Of a stretch of DNA of 64,000 bases, positions 324 through 53,625 are shown one piece after another. The translations under genes and the position numbers were made by a program. Source of the stretch: Eledone cirrhosa (lineage: Eukaryota). Under the pieces are notes generated by a model. That model searched no databases, was not told the DNA's origin, and was given only the letters and a program-made list of their open reading frames with translations. The stretch lies in contig OZ024741.1 in NCBI GenBank assembly GCA_964016885.1, positions 992,001-1,056,000 on the forward strand. The letters run 5' to 3'. How positions within the stretch are numbered: position 1 is the first letter of the stretch; each line of letters starts with the position of its first letter.

Positions 324-454
324 ATTTTATAGAAGGAGCTTCTACAGGACTAGTACTGTTTCATTCAGATGAAATATTCAGGAAGCTCTTCAGCTTCCTG
401 AAGATTTCATCTGAATGAAACAGTACTAGTCCTGTAGAAGCTCCTTCTATAAAA
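324..454. repeat. Near-perfect 131-bp palindrome (fold-back insertion) carrying a hammerhead motif
   Basis: Arms 324-387 and 392-454 are reverse complements with one mismatch around a CTTC loop. (TA)n follows. Confidence 0.95.
392..442 (+). ncRNA. Type I hammerhead ribozyme motif
   Basis: Stem I AGCTTC/GAAGCT; CTGAAGA 398-404; short stem II; GAAA 417-420; stem III ACAG/CTGT; GUA site. Confidence 0.7.
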
Positions 455-705
455 TATATATATATATATATATATATATATATATATATATATATATACA
501 CATATATATATATATATACATATACATACACATACACACACACACACACACACACATATATACATACACACATACATTAATAACAATAATAATAATAATA
601 ATAATAACAACAATAATAATAACGACAACAACAATAATAATATACATATACATATATATATACACACACACGCACACACATAAGCATATCTACACACACA
701 CACAC

Positions 706-3700
706 GATAGCAACTAACAACGCTGCGATCGAATGTGGCCTTTTAGCCCAGCCAATGATCTAAAATGTCTTGCACAGAGTCGGCAACCAAAACATTCACT
801 GGGAATAGTCGGCTGTGGTTGGAGTTCGTGTACTTTTGCATGTCGCTTGAGCCCTCCTGCTGATTTACATTCTCTACCACATGTTTGGCAAGCATGATGA
901 GTAGCATCTCCAACAGCAGCCTGGTAGTCAACCACTGGTCTTACTTTATGACTGCGAAGATGATTTTCGAGTCCAGCTTTGCTTAGGCAGAGTCTCGCAC
1001 ATACGCTGCATGTCAGCACCATAGGAGGACCCTCGCCGTCTGGAAGTGCAACAGCAATGCCCTTCCTCACATCCCGCTTTAATTTCTCGTATGCGATTCG
1101 AGATGTCTCAAAGGCAACTTTTCCCTCATATACAGTCTTTCTCTATTTATTACAATCAGCAGCAATATTCTCCCATGTATCAGCAGAGATGTTAGTGTCT
1201 TTCAGAGAGGCTTTCAAGGAATCCTTATACCTCTTTTTGGGTTTATGTGGCGGTCGTTTTCCTTTAACCAACTCTCCATAAAAGAGTTGTTTTGGTATTC
1301 TAGAATCCTTCATCCTGGCAAGGTGACCACTCCAACGGAGTCGTTGCTTAAGCACAAGAGCTTCTATACTGTCACACATAGAGCTTTCCAAAATCTCGAC
1401 ATCACTGATGTGGTCCCTCCAGTGAACGCCATGGATCCGTCTGAGACACATCTGATGGAATCGCTTCAATTGCTTAAGATGGTGTCGATATGTGAGCCAG
1501 GTCCCGCAGGAATAAAGAAGACAAGAGAGCACACATGCCCTGTACACCTTTACCTTTGTCCTCCTGCATATGTCTCGCCGACCCCAGAGTCGCCTTTCTA
1601 GCTTTCCGAAAGCATCACTTGCTTTCCTAATCCTAAGTGAGATTTCACTGTCAAGGTTGCCGTATCGATTGACAGTGCTTCCCAGGTAGACAAACTGATC
1701 AACCACTCCAAGTCGTTTGCCATACACATAGATGTTTGGTTCAGTGTACTGCTTACCAGGGGCAGGTTGGTACATGACGACGGTTTTCTTGAGACTGACA
1801 GTCAGACCTAGGGCAGTGCAAGCGTCAGAAAATGCATTCAAAATGTGCTGCATATCACTCTCTTTGTGCGCTACAAGATCGCAATCATCTGCATACAAGA
1901 GGTCTCTTATGATTGATGTAAATACTTTTGTCTTCGCAGCAAAGCGCCTGATGTTAAATATGCTGCCTGAGGTTCGATATCGGATGTAAACACCATGCTC
2001 GCAATTCCTGAATGCAATACAGAAAACCATTACAAAGTATATGGCAAACAGGGTCGGTGCTGGAATATCCCACTGTTTCACTCCATTTTTTACTGAGATA
2101 GGCTCCGACATGTTACCCCCGACATTAACCCAAGCCTTCATGTCGTCATGGAAAGACCTAACTAAAGCAAGGAACTTATCAGGGCAACCACGTTTCTGGA
2201 GAACCTTCCATAATGCATCTCTGTTAACAGTATCGAAAGCTTTTGTCAGATCGACAAAAACCTGATACAGATCCAAGCCTTGTTCCATGCACTTCTCCTG
2301 GAGCTGTCTAGCTGAGAAGATCATATCAGTAGTGCCGCGTCCAGCACGAAAACCAGATTGACTTTCAGGAAGAACACAATCTGCAATGTGTGTCAGCAGA
2401 CGGCCCAGAAGCACCCCACATAAAACTTTCTCTACGACAGAAAGCAATGATATACCTCTGTAGTTCCCACAATCGTTCCTGTTACCCTTTCCCTTGTACA
2501 AGACCACCATTACTGCATCTCTCCAGTCCTCAGGTACGGATTCATTAGCCCATATCCTGCCAAACAAAGAGTGAAGATGTTGCAGGAGTCTCTGACCACC
2601 ATATTGTAGGAGCTCAGCATGTATGCCATCCATACCTGGAGATCTTCCACTGTTCAGCTTCGAAATAGCCACTGCAACCTCCACAAGCGTCGGAGGTTCT
2701 GCGAGAGCTACTTTCACAGGACTTTCTGGAATGAGATTGAGGAAATCTTCACTGACGACAGACGGCTGATTCAAAAGCTCATGAAAGTGCTCTCGCCACC
2801 TTCGTAGAATTCCTTGTGAGTCACGAGGAAGTTCTTTGCCATCCTTGCTGCGAAGCGGTGTCACCAGAGAAGAAGACGGTCCATAAACCTCACGCAAGAG
2901 ACTGTACAATAGCTTTGTGTTATTGGAATCAGACGCAGTTTGTATCTCACCAGCCTTCTCACTCCACCACTGATCCTTCATCTGAGAAAGACTCCGCCTA
3001 ACACGTGATTTTACATCCCTGAGTTCCTCATGCAACGTATTCCTCTCCTGTGGTTTTGCCGTCAAGTAGCGTGACAGAGCACGCCTCTTATCAGCCAACA
3101 AGTCTTCTATATGTACATCATTCTCATCAAACCAGTCCTGATGTTTCCTCTGCGCCAATCCCAGAACACGCCTGCCTACATCATAAACCGACTTTTTAAG
3201 GGTCGGCCAATCCTCACCAAGATCTGCAGCCCGCATCTCTTCTTCCAATGTCCTCTTCACATTTTTATCCTTAAGACGAGCAGCATTCAATCTTTTGTGC
3301 AGGGCAACACCAGGAGCCCGGATTTTACGTTTAGTGATTAGTTTCACTTTTGCGCGTACCAGGCGGTGGTCCGTCCAGCACTCAGCTCCACGAAGAACAC
3401 GAACACACTGCACATCCTGTCCGTCACGCATCCTGACTAGGACGTAGTCCAAAAGATGCCATTCCTTAGATGCAGGATGCATCCATGTGGTCTTGAATTT
3501 GTTCTTTTGTTGGAACATGGTGTTGGTAACACACAGATCCAGCTCCTCACACATCTGCAGCAGGAGCATACCATTGCTGTTACACTTTCCCACCCCATGC
3601 CTTCCGATTACATTCCATGTGTTAAAATCCCTACCCACTCTAGCATTAAAGTCACCAAGCACGATGACTTTGTCTGCCTGAGGGATATTTCTTAAAACAC

Positions 3701-4200
3701 CTTTCAAGGCATGGTAAAAGGACACCTTTTCCTCATCGACAGAACTCATAGTTGGAGCATACACACTCACCAGGGTAGCATATCTTCCCTTGTCCAGCGG
3801 AACTCTCATGGACATAAGACGCTCACTAATCCCTACTGGGAATTCTTCTAATTTGTTCACAAGCACAGTCTTAACAGCAAATCCTACCCCAGCCTCTCTT
3901 CTGGTTCCTTCATCTCTTCCTTTCCAGAAGAATGTATATTCTCCACAAAATTCCGTAAGATGACCATCTCCAGCTAGCCTCGTCTCAGATAAAGCCACGG
4001 TGTCAAGATCGTAACGTCGAAGCTCCTTTGCAACAAGAGCGGTCCTTCGTTCAGGACGCCCCAAGGAATCCCTGTCAAGCAGCGTCCGTACGTTCTAGCA
4101 GCCAAGACTAAATGCCTTGTTTGGCTCTATTACAGTGGCACGATGACGAGCAGGCCCAGGCTGTGATAACCTGGGGCCCCTGCCCTTATTGCCAATGATC
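706..4200 (-). mobile_element. RTE-clade (BovB-like) non-LTR retrotransposon, near full length, inactivated
   Basis: APE endonuclease (ALSETR, LGDFNARVG, WTDH) plus RT (FVDLTKAFD, LLYADD) in one ORF. The 3' end abuts (GT)n. Confidence 0.92.
714..4064 (-). pseudogene. RTE ORF: APE-RT plus three C-terminal C2H2 zinc fingers, broken by an in-frame TAG at 1143-1145
   Basis: ORFs 1143-4064 and 714-1070 are in the same frame, separated by one stop (probably Trp). A second TAG replaces the Trp of the N-terminal xWNVRTL motif near 4096. GVKQW replaces GVKQG. Confidence 0.85.
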
Positions 4201-52680: not shown

Positions 52681-53070
52681 ACTATATTTATCCCATTACA
52701 GAAATTTAGTCCACGGAATTTAGTCCACGCTAGTTTCTTTCCATCTACTGAATTATTATTTTTATATGGGTTCCTAGTGTCCGCGCATTGCCTGGGAACT
52801 TAGCTGAGAATAGACTCCCTGATGACGTAATGAATTCTCTATAGTTATATATATTATGTAACTATATTTATCCCATTACTGAAACTAATTAGTTGGAGTG
52901 AAAATTTTAGTAAGTTAATTTTTAATTTTTAAAATTTTCCTATTTTACGTCTTTCATATAATTGTTCTGCATTCACCTGCATAGAACCACATAGGTACTA
53001 TGACATAACTTATATATTTGCTAGCATGAGTGTACATCTGTACACATATGTTGGTAGATGTACTAATTCT
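52681..53070 (+). repeat. Inverted partial copy of the 540-bp unit
   Basis: Reverse complement of the array unit, followed by (CT)n(TA)n. Confidence 0.9.
52814..52899 (+). ncRNA. Type I hammerhead ribozyme of the 540-bp repeat
   Basis: ACTCC-CTGATGA-c GTAATG [internal hairpin ATAGTTA/TAACTAT] CATTAC t-GAAA-CTAATTAG-TT-GGAGT. Palindrome ACTAATTAGT, GUU site. Confidence 0.85.
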
Positions 53071-53195
53071 CTCTCTCTCTCTCCCTCTCTCTCTCTCTCT
53101 CTCTCTCTCTCTCTCTCTATATATATATATATATATATATATATATATATATATATATATATATATATATATATATATATATATATATATATATA

Positions 53196-53625
53196 TATAA
53201 GAAATTAAAAGATGGTTAAAGACGTTCCATATATTTTATTATGCGCATTTCGAAAACAACATCATCCTGGGACAAAAATTGTGTTCTCATCATATAAAAT
53301 AAGGTAACATGATATGAGGCCTAAAAACACTTGTCAATAGGAAAGTGCAAAACCTACATATATAGCTTTTGTAGGTTTTGTACTTTCCTGTTGACAAGTG
53401 TTTTTAGGCCTCATATCATGTTACCTTATTTTATCTGATGAGAACACAATTTTTGTCCCATGATGATGTTGTTTTCGAAATGCGCATAATAAAATATATG
53501 GAACGTCTTTAACCATCTTTTAATTTCTTATATAATATATACTCAAGTTCTACCAACTGTTGAGTGCTACTTATCTGACTGATATATGCATAGTTTTATT
53601 GTTCTACAATATTACTCACCTTCTA
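53196..53625 (+). mobile_element. Fold-back PLE-derived element (about 165-bp arms) with HHR at 53428-53495
   Basis: 53196-53359 inverts 53370-53533. Homologous to 47574-47820. Confidence 0.85.

What the first reader, a model, noticed from the sequence alone, without database searches (positions are those of the whole stretch)
324..53625. More than 20 hammerhead folds from at least 10 unrelated families in about 53 kb
Seen: HHR-type motifs at 392, 7559, 8354, 9834, 10088, 10360, 11998, 12418, 17985, 18190, 18845, 19535, 20279, 21681, 22704, 23608, 24749, 25104, 43460, 47698, 49551, six array copies, 52814 and 53428. Their stems differ in sequence but pair in the same topology, which argues against chance. 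Known: Penelope-like elements carry minimal HHRs. Inference: much of the apparent spacer DNA between (TA)n tracts is a diverse set of PLE-mobilised ribozyme elements, and could truncate any transcript crossing the region.
Basis: partly seen in the sequence, partly recalled or inferred. Interest (0 to 1): 0.75.

Follow-up and report, generated by a model that had tools for sequence, protein, structure and literature searches.

The report
Penelope-family hammerheads packed into TA repeats
The ribozyme-shaped motifs are real and sit in the end-pieces of Penelope-type jumping genes and of non-coding repeats that likely borrow their enzymes; this animal genome holds an estimated quarter-million of them, so the window is a dense sample of a known kind, and cutting is predicted, not shown.

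Summary
Confirmed as motifs. All 29 listed sites are hammerhead-derived: 20 pass an intact-core descriptor (18 in one scan, against 0.05 per shuffle), 3 have an intact core but a damaged stem, 6 have a changed core. Seven more were missed. They form 16 flank-defined groups, but several are related, and stems covary between subfamilies. Stem III is mostly a palindrome, the dimer-type minimal hammerhead known from Penelope-like elements (PLEs). One family is the end repeat of a full-length Hydra-type PLE; the six-copy array is a 540-nt retrozyme with PLE-type ends. Forty 10-kb samples give 35 hits, about 260,000 genome-wide (bootstrap 120,000-460,000); one superfamily alone has 83,332 exact matches. 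The window is about three times the mean, largely through one array. Two "mutant" cores are fixed across whole families: CCGAAGA (3,864 matches) and CAGUUGA (2,148, in a coding PLE). Retrozyme copies start about three times too often just after the predicted cut, yet 70 of 90 read through. Truncation of host transcripts is unsupported. The scan found PLE hammerheads, retrozymes, variant cores and the cut-site bias before on other DNA of this genome.

The parts
323..456 (.). Fold-back pair of hammerheads: 398(+) intact core, cut predicted after 436; 381(-) twin with G8U
   Evidence: three relatives with the same layout
7559..7604 (+). Type I hammerhead, intact core
   Evidence: relative L092
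8355..8413 (-). Hammerhead with intact core and damaged stem I
   Evidence: read by eye; fails the strict scan
8905..8940 (-).
9742..10237 (.). Inverted pair with intact hammerheads at 9871(-) and 10094(+)
10359..10420 (-). Intact hammerhead of the largest superfamily (83,332 pattern matches genome-wide)
11401..12674 (.). About 420-nt non-coding repeat, two tandem copies plus an inverted copy; hammerheads 11713(-, decayed), 12003(+, A6G), 12423(+, intact)
16404..16470 (+).
16916..16952 (+).
   Evidence: relative L147 has GAAA
17985..18042 (-). Hammerhead with A15.1U change
18190..19570 (+). Three minimal hammerheads of one old family: 18193 intact, 18845 A6C, 19539 A6G
20278..20397 (-). Intact hammerhead with an 89-nt stem II region
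21681..21807 (-). Hammerhead with intact core, long stem II, damaged stem III
   Evidence: read by eye; relatives
22595..22735 (+). Five 24-nt tandem copies of the core region ending in a decayed minimal hammerhead at 22704
22915..22954 (+).
23610..23650 (+). Hammerhead, intact core, weak stems
24457..25064 (+). Further copy of the 420-nt repeat with intact hammerhead at 24754
25104..25150 (-). Hammerhead with family-wide U4C core (CCGAAGA), 3,864 pattern matches
43248..44118 (-). 3' end of a coding PLE; hammerhead at 43461-43496 with family-wide CAGUUGA core (U4A plus A6U), 2,148 pattern matches
47570..49654 (+). 5'-truncated Hydra-type PLE between (TA)n tracts: inverted arm with hammerhead 47758(-), endonuclease C-terminus 48268-48516, 3' UTR, hammerhead 49557(+)
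49683..53118 (-). One insertion of a 540-nt non-coding retrozyme: six tandem hammerheads (49824 to 52514, minus strand) plus an inverted arm with hammerhead 52819(+)
53186..53640 (.). Fold-back stub of a sister of the Hydra-type PLE (about 82% identical): 53293(-, C3A) and 53435(+, intact)

Best explanation
These are real type I hammerhead motifs in the end repeats of Penelope-like retrotransposons and in non-coding repeats that are likely copied by the same enzymes, lying between (TA)n tracts, and they are predicted to cut slowly, as dimers or with protein help. Shown: the motifs, their covariation between subfamilies, their place on both sides of a PLE reading frame, two fixed 3' ends per family, inverted truncated partners and TA flanks. 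Inferred: the PLE endonuclease nicks (TA)n, reverse transcription starts at one of two internal points about 40-200 nt 3' of the ribozyme, and copying usually stops early, so nearly every insertion leaves a hammerhead, often two in opposite orientation. Many lineages doing this fill the genome with an estimated 260,000 canonical-core motifs; the window holds about three times the mean. Also inferred: a minority of template RNAs were cut at the hammerhead before copying, while most were copied uncut. The motifs serve the elements' own RNA cycle, not host gene control.
For: 18 strict sites against 0.05 per shuffle. Stem III a perfect palindrome in 14 of 16 window hits of a scanner that did not require it and 13 of 18 hits in 600 kb elsewhere; in eight examples stem III gave no hairpin alone but self-paired as a duplex (the array row is mis-indexed by one base). 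Covariation: in 29 distinct retrozyme-superfamily copies anchored on sequence outside stem II, one pair reads UA 21, AU 6, CG 1, unpaired 1, another UA 19, GC 10; on a 15-row alignment 20 cells change on both sides against 6.9 in shuffles (0 of 500), although pairs with double changes (37 of 500) and extra pair types (487 of 500) were not clearly above shuffles and most rows were also descriptor hits. Full-length elements hammerhead-ORF-hammerhead in L148, L152, L153, L158, L159, with DKT, CxCX5C, CxxC and CxH motifs that define the Hydra clade, whose families insert into (TA)n (PMC8557442, section 11). Two fixed 3' ends in that PLE and in the retrozyme (unit positions 538 and 112-123), as expected from the two internal start sites measured for an anole PLE (PMC11167929). 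Genome sample 35 hits in 400 kb, 0.6 in shuffles, 1 reversed; hits track TA tract number (rho 0.55); 12 of the 35 belong to a superfamily predicted at 90,000 and counted at 83,332, control 0. Retrozyme arms: 18 of 88 stop within -2 to +18 nt of the predicted cut (0.97% per nt) against 12 stops in the next 63 nt upstream (0.22-0.34% per nt); p 0.0009, and 0.006 for the 60 loci fetched after the bin was first seen.
Against: No cleavage was measured and no RNA data were available. Pfam does not recognise the 821-aa frame and its 26 relatives are almost all unnamed, so the PLE call rests on motifs and layout, without a tree. A direct link to a PLE frame was shown for three groups and hinted for a fourth (one RT fragment in L240); the other groups are assigned by layout or hammerhead type. 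Nine of the 18 stops near the cut lie at +6 to +8, on an AAAATTTT palindrome that could itself favour fold-back, and a folded ribozyme could stall the enzyme at the same place. The 40 sampled positions were chosen by me at round coordinates, 32 of them on the four largest chromosomes, and one tandem array gave 9 of the 35 hits. The window lies in the upper tail of resampled 64-kb sets (1.8% reach 18 hits; 12% reach 12).
Confidence: 0.85

Rival explanations
1. The motifs are kept as RNA structures (protein-binding, dimerisation or packaging signals for the PLE enzyme) and rarely or never cut in the animal; the cluster of 5' ends is a stall or fold-back hotspot.
For: 70 of 90 arms read through the site. 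Whole lineages spread with altered cores. In the anole PLE, catalytic mutants did not affect insertion in vitro and no RNA-seq reads ended at the site (PMC11167929). One of nine Xenopus retrozyme dimers cleaved (10.64898/2026.07.22.740005).
Against: The C3-G8 catalytic pair is swapped as a pair (U3-A8) in 11,016 copies; core blocks stay fixed while stems change; stops fall from 0.97% to 0.34% per nt just upstream of the cut, and 7 of the 18 stops are not fold-backs onto the same 3' region (read by eye).
Confidence: 0.3
2. The region is a special ribozyme-rich domain that terminates or degrades host transcripts crossing it.
For: About three times the genome mean; 17 sites on plus and 19 on minus, so either transcription direction meets some.
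Against: Similar clusters occur in sampled loci (10 hits in L052, 5 in L036) and next door (15 hits in 200 kb). Sites follow insertion rules, decay like neutral repeats, and 7 of 20 intact ones come from one insertion. No host gene identified.
Confidence: 0.04
3. Chance matches in AT-rich, repeat-rich DNA.
For: With two core mismatches the descriptor gives 35.8 hits per shuffle; Rfam reports none.
Against: Strict scans give 16-18 hits against 0-0.05; backward-pattern controls give 0 against thousands; compensatory changes.
Confidence: 0.01

Closest known systems
Minimal type I hammerheads of metazoan Penelope-like elements (Cervera and De la Pena 2014, PMC4209133; parts 1-2 of 4 read)
   Same: Palindromic or absent stem III, extra base between positions 9 and 10.1, place in pLTRs, pairs 100-700 bp apart on opposite strands, many heterogeneous families per genome, U3-A8 core variant.
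   Different: Counts there are about 2,000-9,000 per genome (Schistosoma, coelacanth, Xenopus) against an estimated 260,000 here, with different descriptors; several families here have long stem II regions (36-98 nt); the U4A plus A6U core is not mentioned in the parts read.
Hydra-clade PLEs (Craig et al. 2021, PMC8557442; passages and section 11 read)
   Same: C-terminal GIY-YIG, DKT, CxCX5C linker, CxxC and CxH, no CCHH, canonical hammerhead, (TA)n targets, tandem and inverted arms with an optional tail.
   Different: Element about 3.9 kb rather than under 3 kb; tail about 95 nt rather than the 30-40 nt given for PLEs; RWK reads RWT; no tree was built.
Animal non-LTR retrozymes (Cervera and De la Pena 2020, PMC7229834, passages read; Li, Clavereau and Pollet 2026, 10.64898/2026.07.22.740005, parts 1-3 of 5 read)
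   Same: Non-coding tandem units with one type I hammerhead each, low GC, proposed PLE mobilisation.
   Different: Unit of 540 nt is above the 150-450 bp usual range but within 51-972 bp; insertions show PLE-type twin 3' ends and inverted arms; circular RNA not tested. The largest count in those papers is 126,247 (axolotl).
Natural hammerhead core variants (Perreault et al. 2011, PMC3088659; passages and part 3 of 8 read)
   Same: U3-A8, U4C (viroid) and A6C are known, with reduced but real activity for U4C and A6C.
   Different: CAGUUGA changes positions 4 and 6 together; it is not named in the passages read, and Figure 5 and the supplements were not seen.

Membership tests
Type I hammerhead ribozyme | CUGANGA, GAAA and UH in order with three stems | tested here: met
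   20 of 29 listed sites; not met for the 9 damaged or variant sites
Type I hammerhead ribozyme | Compensatory changes in stems among homologues | tested here: met
   seen between subfamilies, little variation within young families
Type I hammerhead ribozyme | Match to an Rfam hammerhead model at gathering score | tested here: not met
   0 matches; none among the 150 of 298 rows shown in the E-value run
Type I hammerhead ribozyme | Site-specific self-cleavage | not testable with these tools
   needs transcription assays
Minimal hammerheads of metazoan PLEs | Palindromic, unstable stem III | tested here: met
   14 of 16, 13 of 18
Minimal hammerheads of metazoan PLEs | Located in the terminal repeat of a PLE | tested here: met
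   shown for the 47758/49557, 43493 and 10412 groups; not shown for the other groups
Hydra-clade PLE (47570-49654 element) | Single ORF, RT then C-terminal GIY-YIG, with DKT, CxCX5C, CxxC and CxH | tested here: met
   motif search on L148 against the description
Hydra-clade PLE (47570-49654 element) | Placement in the Hydra clade on an RT tree | not tested
   no reference set was loaded; Pfam and PDB gave no informative match
Endonuclease-positive PLE insertion | Partial tandems, inverted 5'-truncated arm, optional tail, microsatellite target | tested here: met
Animal non-LTR retrozyme (540-nt array) | Non-coding tandem units, each with a type I hammerhead | tested here: met
   six units with intact core; longest ATG frame 29 codons
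Animal non-LTR retrozyme (540-nt array) | Expressed as linear and circular monomer RNA | not testable with these tools
   needs RNA data
Non-circularly permuted hammerheads (Eckert et al. 2023, PMC10085705; passages read) | Core blocks in SGC, CSG or GCS order | tested here: not met
   0 hits in the window with intact cores

The most novel reading that the evidence does not exclude
This octopod genome carries more hammerheads than any genome in the papers I read, some of its coding Penelope lineages run on rewired cores such as CAGUUGA that still cut, and the start points of retrozyme copies are a fossil record of cleavage in the germ line, which would give direct genomic access to the open question of what PLE hammerheads do.
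Probability: 0.25. Interest if true: 0.62.

Novelty: new member of a known kind. Interest (0 to 1): 0.38.

Why it matters
The role of PLE hammerheads is described as unclear (PMC8557442), and the one purified PLE inserted from uncut RNA (PMC11167929). A genome with dozens of lineages, canonical and altered cores side by side, and thousands of young copies per family allows a natural comparison: does the excess of 5' ends at the cut site vanish in families with altered cores? It also means repeat annotation of this genome should class much short TA-flanked DNA as PLE ends or retrozymes. I found no paper on cephalopod hammerheads in three searches; PLE expansion in Octopus vulgaris is reported without mention of ribozymes (PMC13282606, passages read).

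Tried and rejected
Rfam scans: nothing at gathering score; the E-value list was dominated by microRNA models on TA repeats. Two-mismatch descriptor: unselective, not used as evidence. Scrambled-order hammerheads, a lead from earlier notes: none in the window. My first label for the 47570-49654 element was Neptune, from recall; the motifs fit Hydra. Rolling-circle origin of the six-copy array: the five full units share one private base (0 of 38 dispersed copies) and differ by 1.45% against 2.95% to dispersed copies, so they come from one source, but a second private base is in four of five, and three other arrays are 0.2-3.0% apart inside, so circle and multimer templates cannot be told apart. 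A canonical sister of the CAGUUGA family: none; all 45 matches without A at position 4 keep U6; 20 matches vary the next base and show no clear compensatory change. Selection on variant cores: unselected copies differ less in the motif than in flanks (2.9% against 10.3% and 5.2%, 11 copies, for CAGUUGA; 3.2% against 5.7% and 4.4%, 22 copies, for U3-A8; only 3 copies for U4C), which is weak because the BLAST query included the motif and the upstream flank has homopolymers. The hairpin element at 8607-8826 was considered as a half hammerhead and left uncounted. A 5'-end cluster in the coding PLE: four short arms end 380-394 around the cut at 392, three of them upstream of it; too few to use. Lunse et al. 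2017 on PLE hammerhead variants could not be read and may already list such cores; searches for U4A/A6U, variant dimers and truncation at the cut site found nothing on point.
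Full report
Setting. The window is G000:C2:992001-1056000 of a 3.0-Gb animal genome. Named relatives of one of its LINE proteins are from Argonauta hians (60-67% identity) and a cuttlefish (47%), so the host is probably an octopod; this is an inference. The long reading frames are LINE, Helitron and PLE remnants; no host gene was identified and no gene prediction was run.

Observation. I wrote type I hammerhead descriptors and ran them on both strands. A second descriptor adds 398(+) and 9871(-) (16 hits, 0 in 30 shuffles). 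Of the 29 listed sites, 20 are intact, 3 have both core blocks but a damaged stem, and 6 have a changed core. Seven further sites were missed, including two with the U3-A8 core. Rfam finds none.

Structure. Stem III is a perfect palindrome in 14 of 16 window hits and 13 of 18 hits in 600 kb of other loci, under scanners that also accept ordinary hairpins. In eight examples it forms no hairpin alone but pairs with a second copy (one row mis-indexed by a base). This is the dimer-type design described for metazoan PLE hammerheads (PMC4209133). Covariation appears between subfamilies. In 29 distinct copies of the array superfamily, picked by sequence outside stem II, one stem II pair reads UA 21, AU 6, CG 1, unpaired 1 and another UA 19, GC 10. 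On a 15-row alignment of the 10412 superfamily 90.6% of cells pair and 20 change on both sides against 6.9 in shuffles; two other measures were not clearly above shuffles, and most rows were also descriptor hits.

Carriers. The 47570-49654 element ends in an 83-residue frame found at 100% identity in 149 of 150 scored genomic places, several inside frames of 820-821 codons. Five of 20 larger loci show hammerhead, ORF, hammerhead in one orientation. The protein has YRDD, DKT, CxCX5C, a GIY-YIG-like stretch, CxxC and CxH, the diagnostic set of the Hydra clade, whose families insert into (TA)n (PMC8557442). Pfam does not recognise it. Its copies end at two fixed points about 95 nt apart and often have an inverted truncated arm. 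[quoted passage not shown] PLE coding remnants at 34-85% identity occur in 7 of 40 sampled 10-kb stretches, several 1.3-1.7 kb upstream of a hammerhead on the same strand. The array at 49683-53118 is one insertion of a 540-nt unit without a frame over 29 codons, with about 2,900 first-look candidates genome-wide at 95-98% for the best, TA flanks, two fixed 3' ends and inverted arms. That matches animal non-LTR retrozymes (PMC7229834; 10.64898/2026.07.22.740005) and the internal two-site start of PLE reverse transcription (PMC11167929).

Is the window special? Forty 10-kb stretches at positions I chose across eleven chromosomes gave 35 strict hits (0.6 in shuffles, 1 reversed); the 200 kb beside the window gave 15. 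That extrapolates to about 262,000 canonical-core motifs, bootstrap 120,000-457,000. As a check, 12 of the 35 belong to one superfamily, predicting 90,000; an exact genome-wide pattern count gives 83,332 with control 0. The largest count in the papers I read is 126,247 in axolotl, obtained with another descriptor. The window is about three times the mean and in the upper tail (1.8% of resampled sets reach 18), but 7 of its 18 come from one insertion. Hammerhead-bearing stretches between TA tracts cover 31% of the finding's span.

Variant cores. Two sites that look mutated are family states. CCGAAGA (U4C) has 3,864 pattern matches, 99 of the 100 listed with C at position 4; core and stem II stay fixed across subfamilies with different flanks while the stem III palindrome switches between CAGCUG and CAAUUG. 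CAGUUGA (U4A plus A6U) has 2,148 matches, 98 of the 100 listed with A at 4 and all with U at 6, and no canonical sister. U3-A8 has 11,016 exact matches. U3-A8 and U4C are published (PMC4209133, PMC3088659). I did not find the double change in print, but could not read Lunse et al. 2017 or the supplements of the cited papers. Whether it cuts is open.

A possible trace of cutting. For 90 retrozyme arms picked only by their 3' end (90 of the first 100 listed of 1,505 matches, all on chromosome C1), 18 of 88 at risk stop within -2 to +18 nt of the predicted cut, 0.97% per nt, against 2 stops in the 27 nt further 3' and 12 stops in the 63 nt upstream (0.22-0.34% per nt). The excess holds in the 60 loci fetched after I first saw it (p 0.006; two of those loci are near-duplicates). 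But 70 of 90 arms read through, and half of the stops sit on a short palindrome, so stalling or fold-back remain possible.

Mechanism and verdict. Shown: motifs, covariation, PLE association for three groups, insertion anatomy, genome-wide abundance. Inferred: TA-targeted nicking, internal priming 3' of the ribozyme, early truncation that leaves one or two hammerheads per insertion, slow dimer- or protein-dependent cleavage of a minority of templates. The suggestion that the region truncates crossing transcripts has no support: single minimal hammerheads did not cleave in vitro (PMC4209133), the anole PLE motif needed protein (PMC11167929), and one of nine Xenopus dimers cleaved. This is a new, unusually abundant instance of a known kind, and the scan has already noted PLE hammerheads, retrozymes and variant cores elsewhere in this genome. 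Interest 0.38.

Noticed in passing
window 8607-8826, 22249-22489, 53641-53870 (fragment at 7996-8120): A 220-250-nt TA-flanked element with a 130-nt terminal hairpin; about 3,000 first-look candidates genome-wide, best at 94-97%. It holds GAAAC and GUC blocks in a paired context but no CUGANGA; origin unexplained.
   Followed up: partly
window 1-85 (-): 5' part of a U3 snoRNA-like sequence, 34 bits, E 0.0007, cut by the window edge.
   Followed up: no
window 12907-14242 (+): Helitron-like remnant with a PIF1 helicase match (E 1.8e-21).
   Followed up: partly
window 25940-40540 and 56200-64000: Several 68-85% identical copies of a Tx1-like LINE (label recalled; RVT_1 match), some starting at (AC)n or (AAT)n tracts; no hammerheads in these blocks.
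   Followed up: partly
window 714-4094 (-): RTE-like LINE (label recalled) with a 983-codon frame and a C-terminal zinc-finger frame.
   Followed up: no
window 46323-46844: A 520-bp, 97% perfect palindrome centred on a microsatellite; no hammerhead found in it.
   Followed up: no
L075 4493(+), L077 416(-) and 3498(+): A second U3-A8 hammerhead family with a 7-bp stem II and GUC site, distinct from the one in the window.
   Followed up: no
L066-L073 (G000:C2:892001-972000): Eighty kb just upstream of the window with uniform 35% GC, no TA tracts and no hammerheads, possibly a satellite block.
   Followed up: no
window 6597-6759: Two 80-nt tandem copies with a weak one-mismatch hammerhead match at 6612; not counted.
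   Followed up: no
L230 and L220: The CAGUUGA family end is joined directly to pieces of other PLE families, suggesting template switching or nested insertion.
   Followed up: no
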